Part shown: piece by piece, positions 1 to 64,000 of the stretch
Position numbering within the stretch: the stretch's first letter is position 1
How the letters are laid out: each line of letters opens with the position of its first letter
Source of the DNA: Stegostoma tigrinum
Taxonomy: Eukaryota
Reading direction: 5' to 3'
Assembly (NCBI RefSeq): GCF_030684315.1
Contig: NC_081388.1
Coordinates: 8,664,093 to 8,728,092 of the forward strand
DNA length: 64,000 nucleotides
Program-made: the position numbers and the translations under genes
The notes under the pieces: generated by a model
Told to the model about the DNA's origin: nothing
What the model saw: the letters and a program-made list of their open reading frames with translations, nothing else
The model's database searches: none

Positions 1-53
1 ATAGAACCTTCATTTCAAATTGGTTCCCCATTCCTTCATCTGTTGTCTTTCAG

Positions 54-1630
54 ATGACTGGAGACTTCTTGATCTACACCACCCACCTGACCCACATCCC
101 AAACTATCCTGGGTCTGTCATTGTGAGAACCAATGGAGCTGTCATTCCCATTGTGTCGTTATTTGAGGTGAGCCTTTGCTAGATTGTCAACATCATCTGT
201 AGCTGTCACCTGACACTAGCTTAAAATGGCTGCACTGTCTCTCCCCAGGACAGGCAATGTGAGCAGTGACCCCATCAATCCCACAGGATCCCATTCAGCT
301 CCACCAGGTCTAGAGAAGGGCACTTGTCATTCTCCCTGCGTCTAATGAATGGTATGTGAGGGCTGGCTAGGGAGGGATCGCCTGGTGTCACTCACTGGGA
401 GCTGCACCTACTATCTGTAACCCTTGTCCTCTTGTACTTCAGGTGACTGGCTTAAAGAGCACACTTCCACTGTCTACTCCCTGGGAGACCTCATTCACAT
501 TGAGGCGTCTGTTTCAATGGACAACCACTTGCCCCTGAAGCTGTACATTGACCGCTGTGTAGCTACACTGAGCCCAGGCAAGGACTCCAGCCCCAGATAC
601 AGCATCATTGACTACAATGGGTAAGGAGCTCTCTGCTTTCTCCAGCTGCTTCCATCTCAATGGCTTCACTCCGTTCACTTCATGGCCCTTTGTTCACCTG
701 CAGTTGCCTCGTAGACAGCAAAGCTGAGGACTCCTTTTCAACCTTTGTGTTGCCGAGAGACCAGCGGGAGCCAGACAAGCTCAGGTTTGACCTGGATGCC
801 TTCCGCTTCTATGGAGATGAACAATCCTTGGTAAGAGGAAGCTGCTGATTAGTCACTCCCACCCAGTGGGGAGAAGCCAAACTGACTTGTGCTGCATGTG
901 TCCCTCAGATATTCATCACCTGTCACCTGAAAGTTGCTGCAGTAGATCAGGGAGATTCCAGGAACAAAGCTTGTACTTTCCAGAAGCTGCACAAGATGTG
1001 AATGGTTTCTGACCTACCCTCTGCCCCCACTCACCGTCCCTTAGTGATGTTGTTGGTGAGGTGATGCCCCACGTGGTTCATGAGCTTTTTCTCCTGTTTA
1101 GCTGGACCCCACTAGAGGAATCAAGCAGTGACATTTGTGCCTGTTGCCATGTGGGGAACTGTGGTAGCACACGGGACATCATCCTTCCCTTCAGAGGAAG
1201 GAGAGACCTTGGAGCTGAAGCTGGTAAGTCACTGAACCACGAGATGTTCGGGCTATACACCCCTTCCTGAACCTAACCGTACTGCTCTCTCTCCTGCAGA
1301 GTGAAGCTGGATTGAAGTGGGAGGGTGAGTCCTCAGTTGGCCCCCTGCTCATTCTGGATCCTGAGCTGACCAGCCTGGCGACTGAGCCCCTGACTGAGGA
1401 TGAGCAAAGGATGCAGGAGATGTCTCCAGGCGGTGAGTTGCCTGACTGCTAGTTTGCCTCTTTGTCCCAGTTTCCATCAGTAACCATTGGTTTCTCCTTG
1501 CTGTGTAGGTGTGCAGTCTGAGCTGGTTGTGATGCTGTCCCTGACAGTGACAGCTGTCTCCCTGATCTCTGCTTCGTTGATGGCCTTGATCCTGTACAGG
1601 AAGCACCAGCGAACTCCACTCAACTATTGA
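54..1630 (+). pseudogene. zp3: ZP3-like gene copy 1 (mostly type A), exons 2-9 only; exon 1 lies upstream of the window. Three frameshifting indels.
   Basis: Exons 54-167, 249-351, 443-620, 704-830, 909-997, 1102-1223, 1300-1432 and 1509-1630, all with GT-AG boundaries. Versus intact copies, exon 2 lacks 2 bp (ATTGTGTCG vs ATTGTGTGTCG), exon 3 lacks 1 bp (CCCACAGGATC vs CCCACCTGGATC), and the exon 8 start lacks AG. The first frameshift reaches TGA early in exon 3. Confidence 0.8.
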
Positions 1631-1641
1631 TGGAATAGTCC

Positions 1642-1647
1642 AATAAA
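1642..1647 (+). terminator. Polyadenylation signal AATAAA of copy 1; the same signal is present after every complete copy, e.g. 10871-10876
   Basis: AATAAA lies ~12 nt after the stop codon and is followed by a GT/T-rich tract (TTGTCTCTTGTTTCTTG). This implies a very short 3' UTR. Confidence 0.8.
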
Positions 1648-2345: not shown

Positions 2346-2792
2346 GGTGAATCAAACTGGTGCCTGAGACACATTGCTCTGTCTTCTGCTGTATTCTTCA
2401 GAAAGAATCTCAGTCCAATGTCCACCTTGTCTTGTAAATATTAGTTGTTTTTTTTCTCCACTGGGCTTTCTTCCCTGGGGTTTTGGTCTGAGGTCAGATA
2501 GTCCTGACTCAACTGAGTCAAGCATCTACTGTACAAATTGCAGCTGAATGTGAATGCAGGCTGGGGGCCCTGTTTTGGAATGTACAGGCCTTAAGACTCC
2601 TCCACACTTCAGGCCCTCATTAACAACTGGGGTCTAGAGGTGAACAATAATCAAGTGTCATCCCTTCTGCTCCAAAAACTATACCCAGTTGCTGATGACC
2701 TAATTATAAAGATGGCCACAACACACATCTGAGAGTTACTGCCCAAGCGCCTTTGTAAGCTTTAGCTGTTTAAACACTTCATTACTGTGGGT

Positions 2793-2952
2793 AATAAAAT
2801 GTGAGGCTGGATGAACGCAGCAGGCCAAGCAGCATCTCAGGAGTACAAAAGCTGACGTTTCGGGCCTAGACCCTTCACCAGAGAGGATTTTGTGCTCCTG
2901 AGATGCTGCTTGGCCTGCTGTGTTCATCCAGCCTCAGATTTTATTATCTCTC
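2793..2952. mobile_element. Unit-1-specific 160 bp fold-back insertion derived from a Penelope-like element terminus, with a 14 bp target-site duplication
   Basis: Arms 2793-2850 and 2888-2945 are reverse complements (55/58 nt). Flanks are TCATTACTGTGGGT (2779-2792) and TCATTACTATGGGT (2953-2966). The equivalent site in other units is empty (e.g. ~21520 TTCATTACGATGGGTGG). Confidence 0.8.
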
Positions 2953-3169
2953 TCATTACTATGGGTGGTGTGTTTCTCTATAATGTGTTCTCCTCCTGTA
3001 ATACCTTCACACAAATGTTCTGGGATGTTCAGTGCCTTGGAGAATTTCAGTAATCCTATTTTGATTTACATCAAGCAGTGCACCAATCATTGTCAAACAA
3101 TTTTTAATATAATTTCCTCACGGATGAGGGTGGCACAGGCTAGGTGCGTGTTTATTGTCCAGAGGGCAG

Positions 3170-3830: not shown

Positions 3831-4202
3831 AGGTTGGAGATGTGCTCACTGAGCGAACAGGTTTGGATGCAAACGTTTCATCACCCTGCTCGGTAACGTC
3901 GTCAGTGCACCTCTGGGGAAGCGATGGTGTTCAGTCCCACTAGTTAATTCTGTGTCTCAGCTTGCTGGAATGGTTGGGATTCCTTCCGGTTCTGTTTCTC
4001 AGTGGTTTGTATATTGGGACAGTTCAATCACTGAGGAACAGAACTGGAAGCTATACCAGCCATTCCAGCAAACAGAGACATATAAATAACAAGTGGGACA
4101 GAACACCATCGCTTCCCCAGAGGCACACTGATGATGTTATCTACCAGGGCGATGAAATGTTTGCACCCAAAGCCAACGGCTCGGCCAGCATGTCTACAAC
4201 CT
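3831..4202. repeat. ~370 bp imperfect inverted repeat of Penelope-like pseudo-LTRs, each arm with a hammerhead-like core; copies at 12915-13286, 22396-22767, 31511-31882, 40592-40963, 50071-50443, 59182-59553
   Basis: The reverse complement of 3831-4008 aligns with 4027-4202. For example CTCTGGGGAAGCGATGGTGTTC pairs with GAACACCATCGCTTCCCCAGAG, and TTCCGGTTCTGTTTCTCAGTG with CACTGAGGAACAGAACTGGAA. Confidence 0.85.
3865..3911 (-). ncRNA. Minimal type-I hammerhead ribozyme-like motif (Penelope-associated)
   Basis: The minus strand reads GGUGCA-CUGACGA-C-GUUACC-GAGCAG-GGUGAU-GAA-ACGU-U-UGCAUC. This gives a 6 bp stem I, a CUGANGA core, a 6 bp stem II (with G-U pairs), GAAA, a palindromic ACGU mini-stem III and a GUU cleavage triplet. 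Confidence 0.6.
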
Positions 4203-4247
4203 CATTCACAACCCCAACTACCAATCTCCTCAAACTTTTCACCCCAG

Positions 4248-5340
4248 TGTCTGCGAATCGCTTTCAGTACGTTCCTAACTTGAAAAGAGACAAGATCAGA
4301 ATGCATTTACTTTAAGGTGGTTTGGACAGTAACCAGTCCTTCACCACCCCTTAAAGGCTCACAGTAAGCTTGGCTCTTTGTTACATTGTTGGCTTGACAT
4401 TGGCCGGGCAGCTGTTGTTCTGGGTAGACGAGGATGCTTCAGGAAGAATGTAGACAGAAAGCAATGTCTTTTCATGGAATCAGATGGCACCAGTAACCAG
4501 CCACTGAGGACTTGGGATTGAGAGCAGGGTTGGCACTCAGTGCGTCAGCTCATCTCATCTATTGGCACGGACCCTGGCATTGCCTTATGCATGTGGATAT
4601 CTCACCTGATTCCTTTTGCCTTGCTGCTTCCAATGACTCTTTCAAAGTTTGACGCTTTCAAATCTGTTTTTACTGCGATCCTGCGACTGCACCAATCTGA
4701 AAGTAAACAGGGCCGAATGGTACATGTTGTATACATTGCCCTGCCTACCACCCTCAGATTGTGGTCAGGGCACTTCATTGCTACGAGCCTCTCGTCGTGA
4801 CCAACCCGGCTGGTGGGCAAGTAAAGTGACCAATGAGTCTCAACCAGAAGAGGCCATTTTTTTCGAAAAAACGAGGTCTCATTTAGTGAGTGACAGTGAT
4901 CACAAACCACCTAATTTACCAAGTTGCTCCCACAATGATGAGGAAATCTAGGTTAAGATCTCTAACCTCTTTGGGTTCCAAGATCCTCAAGACATGATTG
5001 GATAAAACTCTTCCTAGAGTTAAATCGTTCGAAATTATTACTTCATACAACATCTCCATCAAACCTTACCCTATTTTGCACGGACCATTAAATTAACCGT
5101 GACCCCACATTCCCCCAAGTCTCCGATTTTACAACTTCATGGCATCCTGGAGGTTTTGTAATTCTCCCTGAATTCATTCTCTTCAGACTTGGCAGATTGG
5201 TGGGTCTTTGACTTGAGGGCTATTGGCCTTGATCCTATTCTAAAGCTCTACATCAGCAGACTGCTGGAAATGCTGGTGTTTTGAGCTGAGGTTGAAACTC
5301 GTGCTACCCCAGGGGCGTTACTCTATCACCTTAGCTGGAG
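4248..5340 (-). mobile_element. Possible LTR-retrotransposon (Gypsy-like) 3' end relic: pol tail, PPT and a putative LTR at 4248-5109; present in every unit
   Basis: On the minus strand, KRMNSGRITKPP resembles the Gypsy pol C-terminal 'RSGR..KPP' motif. It is followed by the purine tract GGGGGAA, then TGTGGGG (5109), and a candidate end ...GCAGACA (4248) preceded by AGTAAA. Motif-level evidence only. Confidence 0.3.
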
Positions 5341-5769
5341 GACTCTTCATCTCCTGAATTTCTTTTGCAGCCGAACTCTTTCCTGATAACTAAGGGAGTT
5401 GCCCTATAACATCATCTCAGCAGCGTTCATCTCGTGGAATTTTCATCACGGATTCCACTGGTGAAGCTGATATGTTCTTTTACAATGTGTAGGATTCTGG
5501 GTTTTTGGACCAGGTAATCTCTTCACAATCATGTTCTGTGCCTTCATCTTTATTTAGTTGCGGTTCCTATGGAAACATGTGCAGGTCACTTTCAATCAGT
5601 GTGAACTAATCTTCACACTTACCCACTCCCCCAACCCCGATACATCTGTACTGAAGTAAGTTCGCTCTCTATGTTTACTAGTAGCTTGTTCTGAACATCG
5701 TAATTTGCCCTCAATGTTTGTCCTATTGATGAACACAATATGTTCATATCCTTGGCCACTATTGAAGAA

Positions 5770-5890
5770 TTGTTCAGAGGAAGGGTCTCTCTACCCGAAA
5801 CAGTAACTATGATTTCTCTCCACAGATGCTGCCAGCTCTGGTGAACTTTTCCAGAAATTTCTGTTTTTGTTTCTGATTCACTGCATCTGT
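5770..5890 (+). mobile_element. Second Penelope-like terminal fragment with a degenerate hammerhead core; present in every unit (~14855, 24335, 33450, 42532, 52013, 61122)
   Basis: CAGAGGA-AGGGT-CTCTCT-ACCC-GAAAC is followed by GATTTCTCTCCACAGATGCTGCCAG...TTTCTGTTTTTGTTTCTGATT, which resembles shark Penelope-type termini. The core CUGA is mutated to CAGA. Confidence 0.5.
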
Positions 5891-6099
5891 GTCTCTGTCA
5901 GTTTTTAACTGAAAAATTGTTATTGACTTTGCTCTTTCACAGACTGTCAGAGTCATGGAGTTATACAGCATGGAAGCAGGAGTAGGGAACCCTGGATGAA
6001 AAAGGCTGTTACCAGAACAAAGAAGGTGGGATTGATCAGGTACAGGCAACTGGGATCAAGGGAAGGCATGGAGGTAGAGAGGGGTTACAGGATTTAACT

Positions 6100-7782
6100 G
6101 AAGAAGGAAATCAGGATGTCTCAAGAGGGGCATGAGTCAGCTTTGACTGAAAATGTCAGGGCGAATCCAAATAGATTCTTTCCGTATGTTAAAGCCATAA
6201 AAATAACTGGAGAGAGAAATGGAACTCTGAATGGCCAGAGTGGGCATGCATGTGTGGAACTGCAGGAGATGAATGAGGTTCTCAATGAATAGTTTGCCTC
6301 TTTGTGAACTGTGAATAATGACATGAAGACATGGCAACTTTGGGAAGTTAGTGGTGATATCTTGGTGACAGTCCATGTCACAGTGGAGGAGGTGTTGGAA
6401 GTATTGGAAGTGCTGAGAAGAGAAACATGGGAATAATACACTTGCAAGCGTAACATGTGTGATAGGCAAGTTACTTGAGAAGATTCTGAGGGATAAGATA
6501 TGCATGAATATCAAAAGACAGGTTTTGATTAGGAGTAGTCAGCATGTCTTCGTGCATTAGAGATGATGCCTCACAAATTTGTCAGAGTTCTTTGATGAAG
6601 TGTTCAGGAAGTTTGATGGGAGGGCAGGAGTCATTTTCCATATGGATTTCAGTAAGGCCTTTGATAAGTTTCCATGATGCATTTTGGAAAGTGAGATCAA
6701 GGTGGGAATTTCAGGATGAACAGTAGGGCTGTAAGGAATGTAGTGGAACAGAGGGATATTGGAGTTCAGATGCACAATTCTCTGAATGCAGAGTGACGGG
6801 TAGACAGGGCAGTGAAGATGGCGTTTGGCACGCTGGGATTCGCCAATGAGGGCAATGAGCATCTAAGGTGGGAAGTTGTGTTGCAGATATGCAGGACCTA
6901 TTTGGAGTGTCAGCATGGCAAAGTGTGGATGAACACAGCAGGCCAGGCAGCTTCAGAGGAGCTGGAAAGTTGACGTTTCAGGTTGGGACCCTTCTTCAGA
7001 AATGTTAGAGGGGAAAGGGAGGTCAGAAGTTAATACAGAGGAGGGGTGGTGCTGGGGAAGATAGGTGGGATGGTGGTAGGTGAGTGCAGGGAGGGCTGAT
7101 GGGGATTAGTCAGTGCGGTGGGAGGCGCAGATAAGTGGGAGAGAACTTAGGACAGGATGTATCAGGCCAAGGAGGCCTGAGATGAGATGAGGACCGGGAG
7201 GGAAGCTTTGAAAACTGGTAAAATCCACCTTTAGGCCATTGGGCATCAGCTCCTGAGGCAGGACATGAGGTGCTTCTCCTCCAGTTTGTGGGAAGTTGTT
7301 TGTTGCAAGTCAAGTGCAGATGTTTTGCGAAACAGGCTCTGTATCTCTGCTTGGAGTATTGTGTTCAGTTTTGTTCACCTTGTTACAGGAGCAATCCGAT
7401 TAAATTGGAAAAGGTGAAACTGTTACCCTGAGATAGAGGGAGAGGTTGGACAAGCTCAGGCTAATTTCTTTACAGCATAGGAGATTGAGAGGGGATATCC
7501 TCGAAGTGTATAAGCTCATGAGAGTCTTGAAAAGACATGGCAACCTGGTCACCCTGAGGGTGGTGCGCACACGTAGTAAGGGGCCAACAGAAGTGCTTGA
7601 GGGGCTACATTAACAACATTTAATAGACATTGGGACAAATACATGGATGGGAAAGGTTTAGAAGGATAGAGGCAAGGTGCGAGGAAATGAAATTAGCACA
7701 ATGGACATTTTGATCAGCATGCACCATTCTGAGCCAAAGAACATCTCTCTGTGCCTGAACACTCTGTGACTCTATTGTACTC
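6100..7782 (+). mobile_element. Decayed CR1-type LINE 3' fragment, internally deleted form; also ~24665-26346, 33780-35462, 52340-54016, 61450-62976
   Basis: Pseudo-ORF2 pieces include ENVRANPNRFFPYVK, MDFSKAFDK and LEYCVQF. The 3' tail is ...GGGCCAAAG...CTCTGTGACTCTAT. There are many stops and frameshifts. Confidence 0.75.
6920..7290 (-). mobile_element. Penelope-like element 3' fragment nested inside the CR1 LINE; present in every unit (~16352, 25484, 34600, 44032, 53154, 62114)
   Basis: GGATGAACACAGCAGGCCAGGCAGC...GACGTTTCAGGTTGGGACCCTTCTTCAG is homologous to the left arm and loop of the 2793 insertion. The minus-strand core 6972-6999 reads CUGAAGA-AGG-gucccaa-CCU-GAA-ACGU-C. The fragment interrupts the LINE just before the LEYCVQF motif. 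Confidence 0.65.
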
Positions 7783-7819
7783 AGGGGGTCATCTCCATGA
7801 GAACTTGTGGAGCTGAATG

Positions 7820-8050
7820 CAGTCAGGTGACAGCATGGCAACTCCCAGCCATTCCTATTGGTCCAAATGAAATGGGCCCTTCTGGTAAGAAGCCAATGGA
7901 TTTAGACTTTGGTGGAATTTGCAGAGATTGGGGCTGGATCATTGGTTCATTGTTGCTGCTTCTGGTCTGATTGGTGTCAGGTGAGTGCAGGTTGTGTGTA
8001 TCAAAGGAGCTGGGTGGGGGCTGGAAGTGATGGTTGAGTTGTTTGGCATC
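7820..8050 (+). promoter_or_regulatory. zp3 proximal promoter (copy 2): E-box, five CCAAT boxes, a second E-box and a variant TATA
   Basis: CAGGTG at 7824-7829 and 7978-7983. CCAAT/ATTGG at 7857, 7893, 7927, 7941 and 7970. TATCAAA at 7999-8005, where the other copies have TATAAAA (17455, 26563, 35679, 45133, 54233, 63193), 52 nt upstream of the ATG. Confidence 0.7.
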
Positions 8051-10859
8051 ATGGGGGATTTTGTAGTGAAGGGTTTGTTTCCTGTGCTGGTGTTAGTTGG
8101 AGCTGTTTGTTGCTCTGAAACTTGGCAACAGTTTCTGAGCCAGAGGATTCCATGGAGAAGAGTGAGAGCCACCCCTGTACCTGAGAGAGTTTCTCCTCAC
8201 GGGGGTTCCATTGGTTCCAGTTTCAGAATGTCTGAGGGTGGGAGTGTGTCCCCACTGCAGACTGTGATGGTGCAGTGTGGAGAGCAGAAGCTGCAGGTCA
8301 GGGCCCAGTTGGATTTATTTGGAACCAGGCACCTAATTAATGCTGCTGACCTGACCCTGGGGACAGCAGGCTGTCAGCCAACCAGGGTCTACCCTGAGAA
8401 CCACACTGTCCTCTTTGACTATGGCCTGCATGAGTGTGGCAGCAGATTGCAGGTAATGGGAGTCCTTCATAGTTGCTGGAAGCTTTAACTGTGGTGTTTC
8501 TTGCTGTGATGCTAGCTGCAGTGCTGTTGGTATAGGGTCTAATTTCTCTTGGTCTCAAACTGAGATTCTCTCTCTTAGATTAAGACAGGTTTGGGAACCA
8601 CAGAACCATTTAAACCTGTGTCCTCAGGGCCTGTAAGTTATTTCTGGTTCTCCTGAACTTCATCAGCTCTATGTTTTGAGGCTTGTTTTCTCTTTAGTCA
8701 CTCCTCTAAACCCCATCCTGTGTGGATCATACTCTTTAACAAAAGGTTAAGAGGGGCCTTGCTCTTGAATGTCTCCAAATTCCCACTTTCATTGCCTTTG
8801 GAATAACTTGGCTCCTGGGATAAGTGTTCTGTTTCTCTATTATTAGATTATCCCCTGTTCTGTTTTGAGTACGTTGCTGATTAGTTTGGTCTTATCCTTG
8901 TGATAGACTCAAATATTGGAGCTTTGCTGATATCTGAGGAAACCAGAATGTGTCTGAGAGAATCACAACCATGTTCTAGTTCCTTCAATGTTTCTTTTCC
9001 CCACAAAACCCATCTATCTGCTTCAACAAATGTGTATTTCCAATGTAAATGCATTCCCTATCTGATCATTGCTGATCTATTGCAAGATGCACGACCTAGT
9101 CCAATTGGTCCAAAATGACTAACCCCTGAGCTATGATTTATTGCCCCTAAAACTGGTCTCACTGCTTGTGTGCAAACAAGCAGCTGGCACCTGCCAAGCT
9201 CCTGAAGGACATCATCCCATTCCCACAATTCCTTATGTTGCATAGCACCTTCAATTCCAATTGTTTCCATTCTTTAATCTGCTGTCTTTCAGATGACTGG
9301 AGACTTCCTGATCTATACCACCCATCTGACCCACATCCCAAACTATCCTGGGTCTGTCATTGTGAGAACCAATGGAGCTGTCATTCCCATTGTGTGTCGT
9401 TATTTGAGGTGAGCCTTTGCTAGATTGTCAACATCATCTGTAGCTGTCACCTGACACTAGACTAAAATGGCTGCACTGTCTCTCCCCAGGACGGGCAATG
9501 TGAGCAGTGACCCCATCAAGCCCACCTGGATCCCATTCAGCTCCACCAGGTCTGGAGAAGGGCATCTGTCATTCTCCCTGCGTCTAATGAATGGTATGTG
9601 AGGGCTGGCTGGGGAGGGATCTCCTGGTGTCACTCAGTAGGTGCAACTCACACTAACCCTTGTCCTCTTGCATGTCAGGTGACTGGCTTACAGAGCGCAC
9701 TTCCACTGTCTACTCCCTGGGAGACCTCATTCACATTGAGGCATCTGTTTCAATGGACAACCACATGCCCCTGAAGCTGTACATTGACCGCTGTGTAGCT
9801 ACACTGAGCCCAGGCAAGGACTCCAGCCCCAGATACAGCATCATTGACTACAATGGGTAAGGAGCTCTCTGCTTTCTCCAGCTGCTCCCATCTCAATGAC
9901 TTCACTCCATTCACTTCATGGCCCTTTGTTCACCTGTAGTTGCCTCGTGGACAGCAAAGCTGAGGACTCCTTTTCAACCTTTGTGTTGCTGAGAGACCAG
10001 CGGGAGCCGGACAAGCTCAGGTTTGACCTGGATGCCTTCCGCTTCTATGGAGATGAACAATCCTTGGTAAGAGGAAGCTGCTGACTTAGCTTCTCCCCAC
10101 TGGGTGGGAGTGACTAAACACTGACTGACTTGTGCTGAATGTGTCCCTCAGATGTTCATCACCTGTCACCTGAAAGTTGTTGCGGTGGATCAGGGAGATT
10201 CCAGGAACAAAGCTTGTACTTTCCAGAAGCTGCACAAGATGTGTGTGTTTATCCCACTTGCTGCCCCTTAGTGATGTTGTTGGGGAGAGGTGATGCTCCA
10301 TGTGGTTGATGGGCTTTTTGTCTTGTTTAGCTGGAGCCCACTGGAGGAATCAACCAGTGACATTTGTGCCTGTTGCCATGTGGGGAACTGTGGTAGCACA
10401 AGGGAGATCATCTTCTCCTCCAGAGGAAGGAGAGACCTTGGACCTGAAGCTGGTAAGTCACTGACTCATGAGACTCTGGGGCTTTTCACGCTTTCCCTGA
10501 CCATGACCGTACTGTTCTTCCTGCAGAGAGTGAAGGTGGATTGAAGTGGGAGGGTGAGGCCTCGCTTGGCCCCCTGCTCATTCTGGATCCTGAGCTGACC
10601 AGCCTGGCAACTGAGCCCCTGACTGAGGATGAGCAAAGGATGCAGGAGATGTCTCCAGGCGGTGAGTTGCCTGACTGCTAGTTTGCCTCTTTGTCCCAGT
10701 TTCCATCAGTAACCATTGGTTTCTCCTTGCTGTGTAGGTGTGCAGTCTGAGCTGGTTGTGATGCTGTCCCTGACAGTGACAGCTGTCTCCCTGATCTCTG
10801 CTTCGTTGATGGCCTTGTTCCTCTACAGGAAGCACCAGCAAACTCTACTCAACTATTGA
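8051..10859 (+). CDS. zp3: Zona pellucida sperm-binding protein 3-like (ZPC), copy 2 (type B), apparently intact, 464 aa
   Basis: Exons 8051-8452, 9293-9408, 9490-9593, 9679-9856, 9940-10066, 10152-10240, 10331-10452, 10527-10661 and 10738-10859 sum to 1395 nt in frame. Kozak context ATCATGG and a signal peptide. ZP-N Cys in VQCGE, GCQP, HECGS and IVCRY; linker GNVSS/KPTW; ZP-C motifs [39 protein letters not shown] and NKACTF. Then [20 protein letters not shown] and a TM helix. Confidence 0.92.
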
Positions 10860-13800: not shown

Positions 13801-15184
13801 ATGGTACATGTTGTATACATTGCCCTGCCTACCACCCTCAGATTGTGGTCAGGGCACTTCATTGCTACGAGCCTCTCGTCGTGACCAACCCGGCTGGTGG
13901 GCAAGTAAAGTGACCAATGAGTCTCAACCAGAAGAGGCCATTTTTTTCGAAAAAACAAGGTCTCATTTAGTGAGTGACAGTGATCACAAACCACCTAATT
14001 TACCAAGTTGCTCCCACAATGATGAGGAAATCTAGGTTAAGATCTCTAACCTCTTTGGGTTCCAAGATCCTCAAGACATGATTGGATAAAACTCTTCCGA
14101 GAGTTAAACCGTTCAAAATTATTACTTCATACAGCATCTCCATCAAACCTTACCCTATTTTGCACGGACCATTAAATTAACCGTGACCCCACATTCCCCC
14201 AAGCCTCCGATTTTACAACTTCATGGCATCCTGGAGGTTTTGCAATTCTCCCTGAATTCATTCTCTTCAGACTTGGCAGATTGGTGGGTCTTTGACTTGA
14301 GGGCTATTGGCCTTGATCCTATTCTAAAGCTCACATCAGCAGACTACTTGAAATGCTGGTGTTTTGAGCTGAGGTTGAAACTCGTGCTACCCCAGGGGCG
14401 TTACTCTATCACCTTAGCTGGAGAACTCTTCATCTCCTGAATTTCTTTTGCAGCTGAACTCTTTCCTGATAACTATGGTAGTTGCCACATAACATCATCT
14501 CAGGAACGTTCATCTCGTGGAATTTTCATCATGGACTCCTCTGGTGAAGCCTCTATTTTCTTTTACAATGTATAGGATTCTGGGTTTATGGACCAGATAA
14601 TCTCTTCACAATCATGTTCTGTGCCTTCATCTTTATTTAGTTGCGGTTCCTATGGAAACATGTGCAGGTCACTTTCAATCAGTGTGAACTAATCTTTACA
14701 CTTACCCACTCCCCCAACCCCGATACATCTGTACTGAAGCAAGTCCGCTCTCTATGTTAACTAATAGCTTGTTCTGAACATCTTAATTTGCCCTCAATGT
14801 TTGTCCTATTGATGAACACAATATGTTCATATCCTTGGTCACTGTTGAAGAATTGTTCAGAGGAAGGGTCTCTCTACCCGAAACAGTAACTGTGATTTCT
14901 CCCCACAGATGCTGCCAGCTCTGGTGAGCTTTTCCAGAAATTTCTGTTTTTGTTTCTGATTCACTGCACCTGTGGCTCTGTCAGTTTTTAACTGAAAAAT
15001 TGTTATTGACTTTGCTCTTTCACAGACTGTCAGAGTCATGGAGTTATACAGCATGGAAGCAGGAGTAGGGAACCCTGGATGAAAAAGGCTGTTACCAGAA
15101 CAAAGAAGGTGGGATTGATCAGGTACAGGCAACTGGGATCAAGGGAAGGCATGGAGGTAGAGAGGGGTTACAGGATTTAACTGA

Positions 15185-17238: not shown

Positions 17239-17506
17239 AGGGGGCCATCACCATGAGAACCTGTGGAGCTGAATGCAGTCAGGTGACAGCATGGCAACTC
17301 CCAGCCATTCCCATTGGTCCAAATGAAATGGGCCCTCCTGGTAAGAAGCCAATGGATGTAGACATTGGTGGAATTTCCAGAGTTTAGGACTGGATCATTT
17401 GTTCAATGTTGCTGCTTCTGGTCTGATTGGTGTCAGGTGAGTGCAGGTTGTGTGTATAAAAGGAGCTGGGTGGGGGCTGGAGGGGATGGTTGAAGTGTTT
17501 GTGATC

Positions 17507-26300: not shown

Positions 26301-26614
26301 AAGAACATCTCTCTGTGCCTGAACACTCTCTGACTCTATTGTACTCAGGGGGCCATCACCAGAAGAACTTGTGGAGCTGAATGCAGTCAGGTGACAGCAT
26401 GGCAACTCTCAGCCATTCCTATTGGTCCAAATGAAATGGGCCCTTCTGGTAAGAAGCCAATGGATTTAGACTTTGGTGGAATTTGCAGAGATTGGGGCTG
26501 GATCATTGGTTCATTGTTGCTGCTTCTGGTCTGATTGGTGTCAGGTGAGTGCAGGTTGTGTGTATAAAAGGAGCTGGGTGGGGGCTGGAGGGGATGTTTG
26601 AGGTGTTTGTGATC

Positions 26615-44915: not shown

Positions 44916-45184
44916 CAGGGGGCCATCACCATGAGAACCTGTGGAGCTGAATGCAGTCAGGTGACAGCATGGCAACTCCCAGCCATTCCCATTGGTCCAA
45001 ATGAAATGGGCCCTCCTGGTAAGAAGCCAATGGATGTAGACATTGGTGGAATTTCCAGAGATTGGGGCTGGATCATTGGTTCATTGTTGCTGCTTCTGGT
45101 CTGATTGGTGTCAGGTGAGTGCAGGTTGTGTGTATAAAAGGAGCTGGGTGGGGGCTGGAGGGGATGGTTGAAGTGTTTGTGATC

Positions 45185-54000: not shown

Positions 54001-54284
54001 TGACTCTATTGCACTCAGGGCGCCATCATCAGAAGAACTTGTGGAGCTGAATGCAGTCAGGTGACAGCATGGCAACTCTCAGCCATTCCCATTGGTCCAA
54101 ATGAAATGGGCCCTTCTGGTAAGAAGCCAATGGATTTAGACTTTGGTGGAATTTGCAGAGATTGGGGCTGGATCATTGGTTCATTGTTGCTGCTTCTGGT
54201 CTGATTGGTGTCAGGTGAGTGCAGGTTGTGTGTATAAAAGGAGCTGGGTGGGGGCTGGAGGGGATGTTTGAGGTGTTTGTGATC

Positions 54285-57103
54285 ATGGGGGATTTTGTCG
54301 TGATGGGTTTATTCCCTGTGTTGTTATTTGGAGCTGTTTGTTGCTCTGAAACCTGGCAGCCGTTTCTGAGCCAGAGGTATCCATGGAGAAGAGTGAGAGC
54401 CACCCCTGTACCTGAGAGAGTCCCTCCTCACGGGGGTCCCATTGGTTCCAGTTTCAGAATGTCTGAGGGTGGGAGTGTGTCTCCACTGCAGACTGTGATG
54501 GTGCAGTGTGGAGAGCAGAAGCTACAGGTCAGGGCCCAGTTGGATTTATTTGGAACCAGGCACCTAATTAATGCTGCTGACCTGACCCTGGGGACAGCAG
54601 GCTGTCAGCCAACCAGTTTCTACCCTGAGAACCACACTGTCCTCTTTGACTATGGCCTGCATGAGTGTGGCAGCAGATTGCAGGTAATGGGAGTCCTTCA
54701 TAGTTGCTGGAAGCTTGGTCTAAAGTGATCCTTACTGTACTGCTGACTCCAATTCTGTGGTTATTGGGGTCTACTTTCTCTTGTTCTCAAACTGAGATTG
54801 TCTCTTCTGGATTAGTCTGTGGCTGAAGGGGTTCTAAGTCCCAAGCCCCTCTGTTGTCCCCATGGCCTGTAGACTATTTCTGGTTCTCCCTGAACTTGAC
54901 CAGCTCTGTTTTGAGGCTTGTTTCTCCTTAGTCAGCTCCTCTGATCCCTGTCCTGTGGGGGTGTCACTCCTCCTAAACAAGAGTTTTCAGAGTTGCCTTG
55001 CTCTTGAAAGACTCCAAATTCCCACTTTCCTTGCCTTTGGAATAACTGGGCTTGAGATAAGTGTTCTATTTCTCTATTAGATTATTTCCTGTTCTGTTTT
55101 CTGAAACTAATTTTATTGAGGTCACTTTGGTTTGGTCTTGTATTCCTGATATACTCAAATATTGGAGGATTGATGACTGAGGCAACCAAAATGTGCCTGC
55201 AGTGCCTGAGAATCAGGATTATGTTCCTGTTCCTTCAGTGATTCTACTGTCTCTTTCTACAAAACCCATCCATCTGTTTCAACAAAAGTGTATTTCCAGT
55301 GTAAGTGTTCTGTCTGATCTATTGATGCACTAGCTTGTCAAATTGGTCCAAAATGATTAACCCCTGAGCATGATGTATTGCCAATAAACTGGTCTCACTC
55401 TTTCTGTGAGCCAACAGGAGGCTGGCACTGAGCCTGCCAAGCTCCCTGAGGAAGTGTGGAAAAAGGATGTTATGTTGCATAGAACCTTCATTTCAAATTG
55501 GTTCCCCATTCCTTCATCTGCTGTCTTTCAGATGACTGGAGATTTCCTGATCTATGCCACCCACCTGACCCACATCCCAAACTATCCTGGGTCTGTCATT
55601 GTGAGAACCAATGGAGCTGTCATTCCCATTGTGTGTCGTTATTTGAGGTGAGAATCTTTATTTGATTATAAACATTATTTATAGCTGTCACCTGACACTA
55701 GCCTAAAATGGCTGCACTGTCTCTCCCCAGGACGGGCAATGTGAGCAGTGACCCCATCAAGCCCACCTGGATCCCATTCAGCTCCACCAGGTCTGGAGAA
55801 GGGCATCTGTCATTCTCCCTGCGTCTAATGAATGGTATGTGAGGGCTGGCTGGAGAGGGATCTCCTGGTGTCACTCACTGGGAGCTGCATCTACTATCTG
55901 TAACCCTTGTCCTCTTGTACTTCAGGTGACTGGCTTAAAGAGCGCACTTCCACTGTCTACTCCCTGGGAGACCTCATTCACATTGAGGCATCTGTTTCAA
56001 TGGACAACCACATGCCCCTGAAGCTGTACATTGACCGCTGTGTAGCTACACTGAGCCCAGACAAGGACTCCAGCCCCAGATACAGCATCATTGACTACAA
56101 TGGGTAAGGAGATCTCTGCTTTCTCCAGCTGCTCCCATCTTAATGGCTTCACTCCATTCACTTCATGGTCCTTTGTTCACCTGCAGTTGCCTCATGGACA
56201 GCAAAGCTGAGGACTCCTTTTCAACCTTTGTGTTGCTGAGAGACCAGCGGGAGCCGGACAAGCTCAGGTTTGACCTGGATGCCTTCCGCTTCTATGGAGA
56301 TGAACTCTCCTTGGTAAGAGGAAACTGCTGACTTAGCTTCTCCCCACTGGGTGGGAGTGACTAAACACTGACTGACTTGTGCTGAATGTGTCCCTCAGAT
56401 TTTCATCACTTGTCACCTGAAAGTTGCTGCAGTAGATCAGGCAAATTCCAGGAACAAAGCTTGTACTTTCCAGAAGCTGCACCAGATGTGAGCATGTTTT
56501 TTTCTTCCTCCCCTTCCCCCACCTCAGTCCCTTCGTGATGTTGTTGGGAGAGGTGATGCTCCATGTGGTTGATGGGCTGTTTCTGTTGTTTAGCTGGACC
56601 CCACTGGAGGAATCGACCAGTGACATTTGTGCCTGTTGTCATGTGGGGAACTGTGGTAGCACAGGGGAGATCATCTTCTCCTCCAGAGGAAGGAGAGACC
56701 TTGGACCTGAAGCTGGTAGGTCACTGACCCCTGAGATGATGGGGCTATACAACCTTTCCCTGAACCTGACTACTGTTCTCTCCTGCAGAGAGTGAAGGTG
56801 GATTGAAGTGGGAGGGTGAGGCCTCGCTTGGCCCCCTGCTCATTGTGGATCCTGAGCTGACCAGCCTGGCGACTGAGCCCCTGACTGAGGTTGAGCAAAG
56901 GATGCAGGAGATGTCTCCAGGCGGTGAGTTGTCTGACTGCTAGTTTGCCTCTTTGTCCCAGTTTCCCTCAGTAACCATTGGTTTCTCCTTGCTGTGTAGG
57001 TGTGCAGTCTGAGCTGGTTGTGATGCTGTCCCTGACCGTGACAGCTGTCTCCCTGATCTCTGCTTTGTTGATGGCTTTGTTCCTGTCCAGGAAGCACGAG
57101 TGA
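54285..57103 (+). CDS. zp3: ZP3-like copy 7 (type C), apparently intact, ~457 aa
   Basis: Near-identical to copy 4 (offset 27670). Ends ...SRKHE* at 57101-57103. Confidence 0.85.
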
Positions 57104-60100
57104 ACTCTACTCAACGATTGATGGAATAGTCCAATAAAGCAGTGACTCCTTGTCTCTTGTTTCTTGTGTCTAGTTTGTCTCTGCATCATCATGAGTCGAT
57201 ACCCCTGGGGGTTATGCTATGAACCCCCAGAAAACCTTCTGAATCTATTTGTATTGAATGTACTGTTTAGGCTTCACTGCTTGCAGTGACCACAGGGTCT
57301 TGTTGGCAACACAAAATGGGACTTCCACGCCTGAGATCACTGTTCAGACCATTTCCCTCTATAATAGGAACACTGGTGTGAACTGTCCTGGGTTTGCTCC
57401 CATTACATCTGGTCCTTTGTGAATAAGGATGCCTGGGTGTTCAGAGTAAGAAACATGGATCAGACTGACCCTCCATGCTGTATCTGTGCCTCTTTACCTG
57501 GCTGCTGGGTATGGGTGGCATGGAGGCTTAGTGGTTTACATGGCAGCAATGCCACACTAGGAACCAGAGTTCAAATTGCTGTGGGGTGGTAGTACACTCA
57601 CCCTGTGACTGGGTTTAGTGCTCAGGTGTTTTCCTCCAGCCCAAAGGTGCGCCAGTCCTGGTGAATTTTCCGTGGGGAAAGTGCACCAGAGTACAGGGAT
57701 GTATAGGCACTCTGGGTCAGAGACGGGGGGGACGTAGGGTTAAAGCGTGTTGGGCTGTTCTTTGGAATGTTTGGGGTAGCAGTGTGGACTAAAGGGGACA
57801 ATTGGGCTGCTTACATACTGGTGAGAATTCTAAGGGGTAAATCAAACTGGTGCATGACACACATTGCTCTGGCTCTATCTTGTTAATATTCAAAAAAAAT
57901 CTCAGTTCAATATCCGCCTTCTCTTCTAAATGCTTGTTTTTTTCTCTCTGCTGGGCTTTCTCCTGGGAGTTTTGGTCTGATATCAGCTAGTCCTGACTCA
58001 AGCATCTACTCTGCAAATCGCATCTGAATGTGAGTGCAGGATGGGGGCCCTGTTTTGGAAAGTAGAGGCCTGAAGATGCCTTCAGGCCCTCGTTAACAAC
58101 TGGGGCCTGAAGGTGAACAATAATCAAGTGTCATCCCTTCTGCTCCAAAAACTACACCCAGTTGCTGATGACCTAATTATAAAGATGGCCACAACACACA
58201 TCTGAGAGTTACTGCCCAAGCACCTTTGTAAGCTTTAGCTGTTTAAAAACTCCATTACTGTGGTGGTGTGTTTCTCTATAATGTGTTCTCCTCCTGTAAT
58301 ACCTTCACACAAATGTTCTAAGATGTTTAGTGCCCTGGAGCGTTTCAGTAATCCTGTTTTGATTTACATCAAGCTGGGCACCAACCATTGTCAAACAATT
58401 TTTAAAATAATTTCCTCATGGATGAGGTTGGCACAGGCTAGGTGCGTGTTTATTGTCCAGAGGGCAGCTGTAGTCCAGGCAAGGATGGCAGTTTCATTCT
58501 GTAAAGGATGTTGGTGAACGAGATGGGTTTTCTTCCCAACAATTGGTAACAGACTCTGTCATTATTGGACAGGTTAATGACTGATATTTTCAATGAATTT
58601 GCATTCCAGCATCTGCTGTGGTGGGATTTGACACCAGCTCCTCAGAAAATCACCTGTTGTGTCTCTGGTTTAACTATAATACCACAAGGCCATCGTAATT
58701 ACCCACGGCATTAAATCACAGGCAGAGAAAGAACAATATTGTTGAGCTTGGAGCTTGTCCTCTGACAGTGTTATTCAATCATTTCAGTCTGGAGGAAAAC
58801 GAAAGGGTGTTCTGTGCTTCTGAGCACTTCGTTTTGGGTGTGTGGAAGTATTACTGTGTTCATCCTTTCTCTGAGAAGCCACTGGGGCTAACTTTCTATG
58901 ATCTCGCACCATGCTTCAGTCCCTCTTTGTGGGCAAGCACTGTTGGAGCTACGTTATGTTGGGTAAAAAGTTAAATTCATCACCATCCCGCTCACATATT
59001 TGCTTGTAAATTAAATATACTCCAGGCACTGTGTTCAAAGAAGCACAGGTTAATGTTGGCTGGCATTCTGATCACTCATTATCCCTCAGTGAGCACCTCT
59101 GTGGGATATTGCTGTGCCCAGCTTTCCTGCTGCTTCTCCCTACATTACCACAGATGCCACACTTCAAATTTCACCCCATTCAGGTTGGAGATGTGCTCAC
59201 TGAGCGAACAGGTTTGGATGCAAACGGTTCATCACCCTGCTCGGTAACGTCGTCAGTGAACCTCTGGGGAAGCGATGGTGTTCTGTCCTACTAGTTAATT
59301 CTGTGTCTCGGCTTGCTGGAATGGTTGGGATTCCTTCCGGTTCTGTTTCTCAGTGGTTTGTATATTGGGACAGTTCAATCACTGAGGAACAGAACTGGAA
59401 GCTATACCAGCCATTCAAGCAAACAGACACATATAAATAACAAGTGGGACAGAACACCATCGCTCACCAAGAGGCACACTGATGATGTTATCTACCAGGG
59501 CGATGAAATGTTTGCACCCAAAGCCAACGGCTCGGCCAGCATGTCTACAACCTCATTCACAACCCCAACTACCAATCTCCTCAAACTTTTCACCCCAGTG
59601 TCTGCGAATCGCTTTCAGCACGTTCTTAACTTGAAAAGAGACACGATCAGAATGCATTTACTTTAAGGTGGTTTGGACAGTAACCAGCCCTTCACCACCC
59701 CTTAAAGGCTCACAGTAAGCTTGGCTCTTTGTTACATTGTTGGCTTGACATTGTCCGGGCAGCTGTTGTTCTGGGTAGACGAGGAAGCTTCAGGAAGAAT
59801 GTAGACAGAAAGCAATGTCTTTTCATGGAATCAGATGGCACCAGTAACCAGCCACTGAGGACTTGGGATTGAGAGCAGGGTTGGCACTCAGTGCGTCAGC
59901 TCATCTCATCTATTGGCACGGACCCTGGCATTGCCTTATGCATGTGGATATCTCACCTGATTCCTTTTGCCTTGCTGCTTCCAATGACTCTTTCAAAGTT
60001 TGACGCTTTCAAATCTGTTTTTACTGCGATCCTGCGACTGCACCAATCTGAAAGTAAACAGGGCCGAATGGTACATGTTGTATACATTGCCCTGCCTACC

Positions 60101-63100
60101 ACCCTCAGATTGTGGTCAGGGCACTTCATTGCTACGAGCCTCTCGTCGTGACCAACCCGGCTGGTGGGCAAGTAAAGTGACCAATGAGTCTCAACCAGAA
60201 GAGGCCATTTTTTTCGAAAAAACAAGGTCTCATTTAGTGAGTGACAGTGATCACAAACCACCTAATTTACCAAGTTGCTCCCACAATGATGAGGAAATCT
60301 AGGTTAAGATCTCTAACCTCTTTGGGTTCCAAGATCCTCAAGACATGATTGGATAAAACTCTTCCTAGAGTTAAACCGTTCAAAATTATTACTTCATACA
60401 GCATCTCCATCAAACCTTACCCTATTTTGAATGGACCATTAAATTAACCGTGACCCCACATTCCCCCAAGTCTCCGATTTTACAACTTCATGGCATCCTG
60501 GAGGTTTTGTAATTCTCCCTGAATTCATTCTCTTCAGACTTGGCAGATTGGTGGGTCTTTGACTTGAGGGCTCTTGGCCTTGATCCTATTCTAAAGCTCT
60601 ACATCAGCAGACTGCTGGAAATGCTGGTGTTTTGAGCTGAGGTTGAAACTCGTGCTACCCCAGGGGCGTTACTCTATCACCTTAGCTGGAGAACTCTTCA
60701 TCTCCTGAATTTCTTTTGCAGCTGAACTCTTTCCTGATAACTAAGGTAGTTGCCCCATAACATCATCTCAGGAGCGTTCATCTCGTGGAATTTTCATCAT
60801 GGACTCCTCTGGTGAAGCCGCTATTTTCTTTTACAATGTGTAGGATTCTGGGTTTTTGGACCAGGTAATCTCTTCACAATCATGTTCTGTGTCTTCATCT
60901 TTATTTAGTTGCGGTTCCTATGGAAACATGTGCAGGTCACTTTCAATCAGTGTGAACTAATCTTCACACTTACCCACTCCCCCAACCCCGATACATCTGT
61001 ACTGAAGTAAGTTCGCTCTCTATGTTTACTAGTAGCTTGTTCTGAACATCGTAATTTGCCCTCAATGTTTGTCCTATTGATGAACACAATATGTTCATAT
61101 CCTTGGCCACTATTGAAGAATTGTTCAGAGGAAGGGTCTCTCTACCCGAAACAGTAACTATGATTTCACTCCACAGATGCTGCCAGCTCTGGTGAACTTT
61201 TCCAGAAATTTCCGTTTTTGTTTCTGATTCACTGCATTTGTGGCTCTGTCAGTTTTTAACTGAAAAATTGCTATTGACTTTGCTCTTTCACAGACTCACA
61301 GAGTCATGGAGTTATACAGCATGGAAGCAGGAGTAGGGAACCCTGGATGAAAAAGGCTGTTACCAGAACAAAGAAGGTGGGATTGATCAGGTACAGGCAA
61401 CTGGGATCAAGGGAAGCCATGGAGGGAGAGAGGGGTTACAGGATTTAACTGAAGAAGGAAATCAGGATGTCTCAAGAGGGGCATGAGTCAGCTTTGACTG
61501 AAAATGTCAGGGCGAATCCAAATAGATTCTTTCCGTATGTTAAAGCCATAAAAATAACTGGAGAGAGAAATGGAACTCTGAATGGCCAGAGTGGACATGC
61601 ATGTGTGCAACTGCAGGAGATGAATGAGGTTCTCAATGAATAGTTTGCCTCTTTGTGAACTGTGAATAATGACATGAAGACATGGCAACTTTGGGAAGTT
61701 AGTGGTGATATCTTGGTGACAGTCCATGTCACAGTGGAGGAGGTGTTGGAAGTATTGGAAGTGCTGAGAAGAGAAATCTGGGAATAATACACTTGTAAGC
61801 GTAACATGTGTGATAGGCAAGTTACTTGAGAAGATTCTGAGGGATAAGATAACTTTGATAAGTTTCCATGATGCATTTTGAAAAGTGAGATCAAGGTGGG
61901 AATTTCAGGATGAACAGTAGGGCTGTAAGGAATGTAGTGGAACAGAGGGATATTGGAGTTCAGATGCACAATTCTCTGAATGCAGAGTGACGGGTAGACA
62001 GGGCAGTGAAGATGGCGTTTGGCACGCTGGGATTCGCCAATATGGGCAATGAGCATCTAAGGTGGGAAGTTGTGTTGCAGATATGCAGGACCTATTTGGA
62101 GTGTCAGCATGGCAAAGTGTGGATGAACACAGCAGGCCAGGCAGCTTCAGAGGAGCTGGAAAGTTGACGTTTCAGGTTGGGACCCTTCTTCAGAAATGTC
62201 AGAGGGGAAAGGGAGGTCAGAAGTTAATACAGAGGAGGGGTGGTGCTGGGGAAGATAGGTGGGATGGTGGTAGGTGAGTGCAGGGAGGGCTGATAGGGAT
62301 TAGTCAGTGCGGTGGGAGGCGCAGATAAATGGGAGAGAACTTAGGACAGGATGTATCAGGCCAAGGAGGCCTGAGATGAGATGAGGACCGGGAGGGAAGC
62401 TTTGAAAACTGGTAAAATCCACCTTTAGGCCATTGGGCGTCAGCTCCTGAGGCAGGACATGAGGTGCTTCTCCTCCAGTTTGTGGGAAGTTGTTTGTTGC
62501 AAGTCAAGTGCAGATGTTTTGCAAAACAGGCTCTGTATCTCTGCTTGGAGTATTGTGTTCAGTTTTGTTCACCTTGTTACAGGAGCAATCCGATTAAATT
62601 GGAAAAGGTGAAACTGTTACCCTGAGATAGAGGTAGAGGTTGGACAAGCTCAGGCTAATTTCTTTACAGCATAGGAGATTGAGAGGGGATATCCTCGAAG
62701 TGTATAAGCTCATGAGAGTCTTGAAAAGACATGGCAACCTGGTCACCCTGAGGGTGGTGTGCACACATAGTAAGGGGCCAACAGAAGTGCTTGACGGGCT
62801 ACATTAACAACATTTAATAGGCTTTGGGACAAATACATGGATGGGAAAGGTTTAGAAGGATAGGGGCAAGGTGCGAGGAAATGAAATTAGCACAATGGAC
62901 ATTTTGATCAGCATGCACCGTTCTGGGCCAAAGAACATCTCTCTGTGCCTGAACACTCTCTGACTCTATTGTACTCAGGAGGTCATCACCAGAAGAACTT
63001 GTGGAGCTGAATGCAGTCAGGTGACAGCATGGCAACTCCCAGCCATTCCTATTGGTCCAAATGAAATGGGCCCTTCTGGTAAGAAGCCAATGGATTTAGA

Positions 63101-63244
63101 CTTTGGTGGAATTTGCTGAGATTGGGGCTGGATCATTGGTTCATTGTTGCTGCTTCTGGTCTGATTGGTGTCAGGTGAGTGCAGGTTGTGTGTATAAAAG
63201 GAGCTGGGTGGGGGCTGGAAGTGGTGGTTGAGTTGTTTGGGATC

Positions 63245-63646
63245 ATGGGGGATTTTGTAGTGAAGGGTTTGTTCCCTGTGCTGGTGTGTGTTGGAGCTGT
63301 TTGTTGCTCTGAAACTTGGCAACAGTTTCTGAGCCAGAGGATTCCATGGAGAAGAGTGAGAGCCACCCCTGTACCTGAGAGAGTTTCTCCTCACGGGGGT
63401 CCCATTGGTTCCAGTTTCAGAATGTCTGAGGGTGCGAATGTGTCTCCACTGCAGACTGTGATGGTGCAGTGTGGAGAGCAGAAGCTGCAGGTCAGGGCCC
63501 AGTTGGATTTATTTGGAACCAGGCACCTAATTAATGCTGCTGACCTGACCCTGGGGACAGCAGGCTGTCAGCCAACCAGGGTCTACCCTGAGAACCACAC
63601 TGTCCTCTTTGACTATGGCCTGCATGAGTGTGGCAGCAGATTGCAG
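63245..63646 (+). CDS. zp3: ZP3-like copy 8 (type B), exon 1 only; the gene continues beyond the window
   Basis: TATAAAA at 63193 and ATG at 63245. Translates as [23 protein letters not shown]...HECGSRLQ with donor GTAATG, followed by a B-type intron 1. Confidence 0.85.
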
Positions 63647-64000
63647 GTAATGGGAGTCCTCCATAGTTGCTGGAAGCTTGAACTATGGTGTATCTTGCTG
63701 TGATGCTAGCTGTAGTGCTGTTGGTATAGGGTCTAATTTCTTTTGGTCTCAAACTGAGATTCTCTCTCTTAGATTAAGACAGGTTTGGGAACCACAGAAC
63801 CATTTAAACCTGTGTCCTCATGGCCTGTCAGTTATTTCTGGTTCTCCTGAACTTCATCAGCTCTCAATGTTTTGAGGCTCGTTTCTCTTTAGCCACTCCT
63901 CTAATCCCCATCCTGTGTGGATCATACTCTTTAACAAAAGGTTAAGAGGTGCCTTGCTCTTGAATGTCTCCAAATTCCCACTTTCATTGCCTTTGGAATA

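What the first reader, a model, noticed from the sequence alone, without database searches (positions are those of the whole stretch)
1..64000. Satellite-like array of at least 8 ZP3 egg-coat genes organised as a three-paralog higher-order repeat
Seen: eight head-to-tail zp3 copies of three types, defined by intron 1, the N-terminus, exon 7 and the 3' end, in the order A-B-A-C-B-A-C-B. B-A-C triplets recur at ~27.68 kb. Known: ZP3 is single-copy in mammals, while tandem zp3 expansions are reported in some teleosts. Inference: an older triplication was re-amplified as a block, like an alpha-satellite HOR built from genes. This could give high dosage and a fixed paralog ratio for the envelope of a very large egg, apparently in a cartilaginous fish.
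Basis: partly seen in the sequence, partly recalled or inferred. Interest (0 to 1): 0.75.

Follow-up and report, generated by a model that had tools for sequence, protein, structure and literature searches.

The report
Shark egg-coat array, one triplet doubled
This stretch, matching the zebra shark, holds eight head-to-tail copies of the egg-coat gene ZP3, three of them broken, and its three-gene block occurs only twice, likely from one recent duplication in a kind of gene array common in sharks that likely raises egg-coat protein output.

Summary
The array is real: eight zp3 copies on a 9.0-9.5 kb unit, intron-1 types in the order A-B-A-C-B-A-C-B, and a B-A-C block repeated at 27.67 kb (98.3% identity). 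Proteins match RefSeq zebra shark ZP3-like models (up to 100%), and an RNA-like run joins all eight introns. The satellite-like, fixed-ratio reading is not supported. The triplet occurs twice only; copy 1 breaks the period, copy 8 is a diverged B, and neighbouring RefSeq models read B-C-B-C. Three of seven readable copies are broken (the A of triplet 1, the B of triplet 2, copy 1), so intact copies are 1A:1B:2C. The types are recombinant mosaics: intron 1 differs 17-24%, coding dS is only 0.02-0.04, and copy 5 has a C head on a B body. Best reading: one unequal crossover in a birth-and-death array whose exons are homogenised. Multi-copy zp3 is annotated in most sharks checked and clusters by species; teleost zp3 arrays are published. 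I found no paper on the shark arrays; this scan noted them before in other sharks. False duplication is unlikely but not excluded.

The parts
54..1631 (+). zp3 copy 1, type A, exons 2-9 (exon 1 upstream of the window); broken: 2-bp loss in exon 2, net 1-bp loss in exon 3, 2-bp loss at the exon 8 start
8051..10860 (+). zp3 copy 2, type B, intact, 464 aa
   Evidence: tail identical to XP_059495976; all 8 introns joined in run X5
17507..20364 (+). zp3 copy 3, type A; in-frame stop at 19544-19546 in exon 5 (ZP-C)
   Evidence: 232-base contig of X5 identical to its 3' end
26615..29452 (+). zp3 copy 4, type C, intact ZP module and membrane anchor, stop six codons early in the cytoplasmic tail, 457 aa
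35731..38534 (+). zp3 copy 5, C-type promoter and N-terminus on a B-type body; broken by the same 2-bp loss in exon 2 as copy 1
45185..48038 (+). zp3 copy 6, type A, intact, 461 aa
54285..57122 (+). zp3 copy 7, type C, 457 aa; shares a 2,165-base identical run with copy 4
63245..64000 (+). zp3 copy 8, exon 1 and start of intron 1, diverged B type
3900..31500 (+). first copy of the B-A-C block (ends approximate, inside the homogenised spacer)
31500..59200 (+). second copy of the B-A-C block; the spacer before copy 5 follows unit 8 for about 900 bases, then mostly unit 2
3831..5400 (.). spacer core, 97.4-99.5% alike among all seven units; begins with an imperfect 370-base inverted repeat (3831-4202)
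7721..8050 (+). promoter-like region: two CAGGTG E-boxes (-227, -73), 4-6 CCAAT boxes, TATA-like site at -52 from the ATG, kept in all 7 copies that have it
   Evidence: motif scan only
15759..16230 (+). LINE reverse-transcriptase fragment; a 351-base piece is kept only upstream of A-type genes
   Evidence: Pfam RVT_1, E 7.9e-11
2791..2953 (.). about 175-base hairpin insertion found only after copy 1 (MITE-like)

Best explanation
The window is a slice of a tandem zp3 array, matching zebra shark proteins, in which a B-A-C block stands twice, likely because of one recent unequal crossover in the near-identical spacer cores; coding exons are likely kept alike by gene conversion while copies die at random, and the array likely serves bulk ZP3 output for the egg envelope. 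Shown: copy order, lesions, mosaic structure, spliced transcripts, species-wise clustering of shark copies. Inferred: crossover and conversion as the mechanisms, oocyte expression, dosage as the benefit.
For: Only two blocks: copy 1 is A, copy 8 a diverged B; RefSeq models numbered just before the window's copies read B, C-like, B, C-like (XP_059495972-975; order taken from accession numbers). Divergence is a continuum: 4/7 0.93%, 3/6 1.26%, 2/5 1.80%, 5/8 2.11%, 2/8 2.59%, 1/3 2.70%. Spacer core is 97.4-99.5% alike in all units and the spacer before copy 5 switches allegiance there. Mosaicism: incompatibility between neighbouring sites 0.038 against a shuffled mean 0.068, 0 of 300 shuffles as low; copy 5 head is C. 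Exon homogenisation: dS between types 0.024-0.044 over late exon 1 to exon 5 against 141/828 to 197/827 differences in intron 1. Death: 3 of 7 copies broken. Weak purifying selection, dN/dS 0.44-0.58 between types on small counts. Shark copies cluster by species: 17 label changes on a 92-row tree, minimum 13, shuffled mean 66.2; the window's types form one clade (SH-aLRT 99) without the whale shark protein. Run X5 joins all 8 GT..AG introns and has pieces best fitting A, B and C copies.
Against: No flanking DNA was available, so the order outside the window rests on accession numbers; unannotated A-type pseudogenes between those models could restore a longer B-A-C period. After the first 900 bases the junction spacer is mixed, not cleanly unit 2, so the breakpoint is approximate. 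Only 21 of the 41 listed variant letters in sample S1 match the partner copy in the other triplet, and the lesions were not seen in the rows shown (tables were cut), so they are unconfirmed; the 2-bp loss lies in a short TG run where errors occur. Tissue of X5 is not given. Trees are quick searches without bootstrap, one whale shark row only.
Confidence: 0.75

Rival explanations
1. True gene-scale higher-order repeat: B-A-C is the amplified unit over a longer stretch (or in other individuals) and selection keeps the three paralogs near a set ratio.
For: 703 of 774 informative sites respect the k/k+3 pairing. Summed contig depths over type-specific intron 1 in sample S1 are of one order: B 19.9/39.2, A 13.8/30.5, C 18.0/34.4 in X1/X4 (the tool says depth is no copy number). 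A sister sub-array has alternating identical proteins (XP_059495879/881/883/885 and 880/882/884/886) and Mustelus accessions repeat as a trio on small scaffolds, so multi-gene blocks do recur.
Against: Two blocks only; period broken at both ends; one member of each triplet broken; ZP modules of the types are 95.4-97.3% identical and are shuffled into mosaics, including upstream models 973 and 975. At 5 listed intron-1 sites the S1 contigs differ from both C copies of the window, so the window's 4/7 pair may be private to this haplotype.
Confidence: 0.12
2. Assembly artefact: the second triplet is the other haplotype, placed in tandem.
For: Copies 4 and 7 share 2,165 identical bases; no spanning read was available; false tandem duplications are a known assembly error (title in the reference list of PMC6262864).
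Against: No N or gap in the window; triplets differ by 366 substitutions and 23 indel events over 27.6 kb, in line with other paralog pairs in the array; different lesions and a C-type head in copy 5 only; the junction spacer is recombinant as a crossover predicts. A copy-3-identical 232-base contig is in study P2. None of this is decisive, since haplotypes of tandem arrays can differ this much.
Confidence: 0.08
3. Neutral drift in copy number: the array expands and decays by unequal crossover with no dosage benefit beyond a few copies.
For: 3 of 7 copies broken; dN/dS about 0.5; ray clusters hold 1-3 members. In catfish-based comparisons ZP copy number and chorion thickness were not significantly correlated (rho 0.286, p 0.493; PMC13704971 discussion).
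Against: Multi-copy sets are seen in at least nine shark species; promoters keep their motifs in all 7 copies; dN/dS below 1.
Confidence: 0.25

Closest known systems
Tandem ZP3/ZP4 amplification in channel and blue catfish (PMC13704971; abstract and discussion read)
   Same: About 20 ZP3-like copies from tandem and segmental duplication, with pseudogenes, proposed to meet bulk demand; oocyte-only expression.
   Different: Teleost, independent expansion; the parts read do not treat conversion or block periodicity; ovary expression is shown there and only inferred here.
Vertebrate ZP3 (ZPC), chicken ZP3 PDB 3NK3/3NK4 and 8BQU/8RKI
   Same: All 3 PDB matches are ZP3 (best E 5.8e-100); signal peptide, ZP-N, ZP-C with ZP3 cysteine cluster, RGRR furin site, C-terminal hydrophobic anchor.
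   Different: Nine exons here (eight in mammals, recalled); at least 29 RefSeq models on one zebra shark contig instead of one gene.
Vertebrate ZP family survey (Feng et al. 2018, PMC6262864; passages and section 7 read)
   Same: Lineage- and species-specific tandem duplication and pseudogenes in ZP subfamilies.
   Different: The word shark does not occur in its main text; no elasmobranch array described.
Alpha-satellite higher-order repeat (recalled)
   Same: Diverged monomers inside a block, near-identical blocks, unequal crossover as likely motor.
   Different: Two blocks rather than hundreds; blocks 98-99% alike with internal conversion; units are 9-kb genes; no centromeric feature tested.
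RefSeq ZP3-like sets of other sharks (Heptranchias, Scyliorhinus, Mustelus, Heterodontus, Pristiophorus, Chiloscyllium, Hemiscyllium)
   Same: Many near-identical copies on one contig, clustering by species.
   Different: Their unit order could not be read here.

Membership tests
ZP3 (ZPC) subfamily | Single ZP module, ZP-N plus ZP-C | tested here: met
   Pfam PF23344 and PF00100 above cut-off on P0076 (99% like copy 2) and on window exons
ZP3 (ZPC) subfamily | Closest solved structures are ZP3; conserved cysteines including the C-terminal cluster | tested here: met
   3 of 3 PDB hits are ZP3; 12 module cysteines in all 4 intact copies
ZP3 (ZPC) subfamily | Signal peptide, furin site, transmembrane anchor | tested here: met
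   Hydropathy peaks at both ends and RGRR in 4 of 4 intact copies (hydropathy only, no dedicated predictor)
ZP3 (ZPC) subfamily | Oocyte or ovary expression and incorporation into the egg coat | not testable with these tools
   Spliced in run X5, tissue not given
ZP3 (ZPC) subfamily | Placement in ZP3.1, ZP3.2 or ZP3.3 | not tested
   No reference set fetched
Higher-order repeat (alpha-satellite type; features recalled) | Units inside a block more diverged than matching units of different blocks | tested here: met
   Overall 91-95% between types, 98.2-99.1% between partners, though not in the spacer core or copy 5's head
Higher-order repeat (alpha-satellite type; features recalled) | Block iterated many times with unbroken period | tested here: not met
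   Two blocks; copy 1 breaks the period, copy 8 is diverged; only 64 kb seen
Higher-order repeat (alpha-satellite type; features recalled) | Stable monomer types | tested here: not met
   Type depends on the segment; mosaic copies
Concertedly evolving, birth-and-death tandem gene family | Paralogs cluster by species | tested here: met
   (quick trees; Chiloscyllium and Hemiscyllium share two older lineages)
Concertedly evolving, birth-and-death tandem gene family | Recombination tracts and pseudogenes | tested here: met
Concertedly evolving, birth-and-death tandem gene family | Copy-number variation among individuals | tested here: inconclusive
   Contigs of sample S1 differ from the window but give no copy number

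The most novel reading that the evidence does not exclude
Shark zp3 arrays repeatedly amplify multi-gene blocks (a trimer twice here, an apparent dimer four times in the sister sub-array, a trimer in Mustelus), forming gene-scale higher-order repeats that turn over between individuals; conversion homogenises the ZP-N/ZP-C core while heads and exons 6-9 stay distinct, giving a shuffled set of ZP3 isoforms in one egg coat of an internally fertilising vertebrate.
Probability: 0.15. Interest if true: 0.6.

Novelty: new member of a known kind. Interest (0 to 1): 0.3.

Why it matters
It removes an apparent 'satellite made of genes' and replaces it with an ordinary but clean snapshot of tandem-array dynamics: one block duplication, exon-focused homogenisation (intron 1 five to eight times more diverged than synonymous sites) and rapid gene death. 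The shark-wide zp3 expansion seems undescribed in the open literature searched and offers a test of whether ZP3 dosage follows egg size or reproductive mode (egg-laying versus live-bearing sharks, few copies in rays).

Tried and rejected
No genome is held, so flanks could not be read. No RNA holder is listed as such among 19 runs. Run X18 (same study as X5) gave no cover of the exons; tissue unknown, not used as evidence. Contig depth as copy number: low-depth contigs (4.6 in X1, 8.7-10.1 in X4) would imply about 3-4 copies per type and 22-24 in the family, but no single-copy control exists, so it is not relied on. Confirming the lesions in reads failed: tables were cut (19 indel rows and 212 variant rows hidden). 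Organism B covers parts of B-type intron 1 at 85% likeness, a hint that intron types predate a species split; not followed. Tandem Repeats Finder found one trivial repeat: no satellite DNA. Rfam: 12 matches, all below gathering score, on hairpins. The careful tree did not finish; 9 short rows, both whale shark rows among them, were dropped and one was added. Positive selection between types: not seen (dN/dS under 1), low power. Structure prediction and complex prediction were not used: the fold is not in question.
Full report
Observation. Self-BLAST shows a 9.0-9.5 kb unit across the whole window, with no N, and a best long match at an offset of about 27.6 kb (2954-34180 against 30582-61851, 98.3%). 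Exon mapping gives eight same-strand copies of a nine-exon gene; copy 1 lacks exon 1 in the window and copy 8 has only exon 1. 703 of 774 informative sites among copies 2-7 respect that pairing, and 10 of 560 label orders match period 3 as well. The pattern is real.

Identity. Exon 1 found 62 proteins, all ZP3-like and, apart from one bacterial-labelled record, from sharks and rays. Stegostoma tigrinum models match up to 100% over 352 residues, and models XP_059495976, 978, 979, 980 and 981 match the tails of copies 2, 4, 5, 6 and 7 without mismatch over the aligned part. At least 29 zebra shark accessions lie on one 25.36-Mb contig (15 of 19 members of the main cluster were listed). All 3 PDB hits are ZP3; Pfam ZP-N and ZP-C, 12 module cysteines, an RGRR site and two hydrophobic ends are present. 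Run X5, not on record as RNA, joins all eight GT..AG introns and at 98% likeness has pieces best fitting A (a 232-base contig identical to copy 3's 3' end, 3 differences from copy 6), B (exon 6-7 joint) and C copies (exon 1-2 joint). The family is therefore transcribed; the tissue is not given.

Not all copies work. Copy 1 has three frame-breaking indels, copy 3 a stop in exon 5, copy 5 a 2-bp loss in exon 2. That is 3 of 7 readable copies; intact are 2 (B), 4 and 7 (C, tail six residues short) and 6 (A). Triplet 1 lacks a working A and triplet 2 a working B, so the block does not deliver 1:1:1. The lesions could not be confirmed in reads, and the 2-bp loss shared by copies 1 and 5 lies in a TG run.

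The types are mosaics. The 3' flank and the upstream LINE have two types only (A against B/C); the spacer core is 97.4-99.5% alike in all units; copy 5 has a C-type promoter and head (29 of 32 sites) on a B body. A neighbour-incompatibility test supports recombination (0.038 against 0.068; 0 of 300 shuffles). Synonymous divergence between types is 0.024-0.044 from late exon 1 to exon 5 and 0.058-0.099 in exons 6-9, against 17-24% differences in intron 1; dN/dS is 0.44-0.58 on small counts. I infer old paralogs whose coding cores have been homogenised by conversion. In protein trees shark copies cluster by species (17 changes, minimum 13, shuffled mean 66.2; 92 rows, 9 short rows dropped, quick search), and A, B and C form one clade apart from the whale shark protein and from a sister sub-array.

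The higher-order repeat is one event. The block occurs twice. Copy 1 is A where C is due and carries a private insertion; copy 8's intron 1 is 96.3-96.6% like copies 2 and 5, against 99.4% between those two. Pair distances grade from 0.93% (4/7) to 2.95% (1/6), as expected from successive events. The spacer before copy 5 follows unit 8 for about 900 bases and then mostly unit 2, switching at the inverted repeat that opens the homogenised core, which fits an unequal crossover between chromatids misaligned by three units. RefSeq models numbered just before the window's copies are B, C-like, B, C-like, with mixed tails; this rests on accession order and would miss pseudogenes. An earlier unchecked note reports that the upstream window holds more copies and folds into a palindrome (e1-9091049).

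Artefact. The triplets differ by 366 substitutions and 23 indel events, have different lesions, and sit in gap-free sequence. Public contigs hold a copy-3-identical piece in one study and an A-type contig four letters from copy 3 in another, the same count as copy 6 (sites not compared). Only spanning reads can settle it; I give it 8%. Type-specific contig depths in sample S1 are of one order (B 19.9/39.2, A 13.8/30.5, C 18.0/34.4), a weak hint that does not separate the readings.

Literature. Eight searches (listings seen) gave no paper on shark zp3 arrays. Catfish carry about 20 tandem ZP3-like copies with oocyte-only expression, and copy number did not correlate significantly with chorion thickness (PMC13704971, abstract and discussion). 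Feng et al. describe tandem and lineage-specific ZP duplication with no mention of sharks (PMC6262864, passages and section 7). Term searches in the whale shark, zebra shark and Squalomix papers and two reviews found no zp3 array (PMC8455134, PMC10620051, 10.1101/2025.06.08.657570, PMC8830517, PMC13361971; passages only). The Squalomix tandem-cluster figure and supplement, which I could not see, may list ZP clusters in rays. Subscription papers, such as those on zebrafish and notothenioid zp arrays (recalled), were not searchable. Earlier notes of this scan describe similar arrays in horn shark, bamboo shark and sawshark; they are unchecked and not counted as support.

Verdict. A real, transcribed shark zp3 array with one recent three-gene duplication; an ordinary birth-and-death and conversion system, annotated in RefSeq, apparently not yet described in print for sharks. 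New member of a known kind; interest 0.3. The bolder reading, recurrent multi-gene block amplification as a feature of shark zp3 arrays, keeps 15%, chiefly on the alternating identical proteins of the sister sub-array and the Mustelus trio.

Noticed in passing
RefSeq XP_059495874-891 (P0063, P0066 and neighbours), same contig: A sister zp3 sub-array with two alternating proteins, each identical four times (879/881/883/885; 880/882/884/886): a better candidate for a true multi-gene repeat than this window.
   Followed up: partly
P0119, P0120, P0121 (Mustelus asterias): Three proteins recur as consecutive accessions on at least three small scaffolds: amplified trimer or redundant haplotigs.
   Followed up: no
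window 2791-2953: About 175-base near-perfect hairpin insertion (z -14.75) only after copy 1, MITE-like; related half elements lie near 6921 and 16360.
   Followed up: partly
window 3831-4202 and its six homologues: Imperfect 370-base inverted repeat at the start of the most homogenised spacer part, where the junction spacer switches; a possible recombination hotspot.
   Followed up: partly
   Followed up: no
window 8577-8632: Run X5 has one contig splicing a cryptic 56-base exon in B-type intron 1.
   Followed up: no
window 20350-20699: RNA-like contigs identical to copy 3, the copy with a stop codon, run past the poly(A) signal.
   Followed up: partly
P0007, P0147: Shark-like ZP3 sequences labelled Salmonella and Aeromonas in NCBI, probably contamination.
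   Followed up: no
P0022, P0026, P0036: Ray clusters hold 1-3 members against 8-38 in shark clusters (members include isoforms), hinting at a shark-biased expansion.
   Followed up: partly
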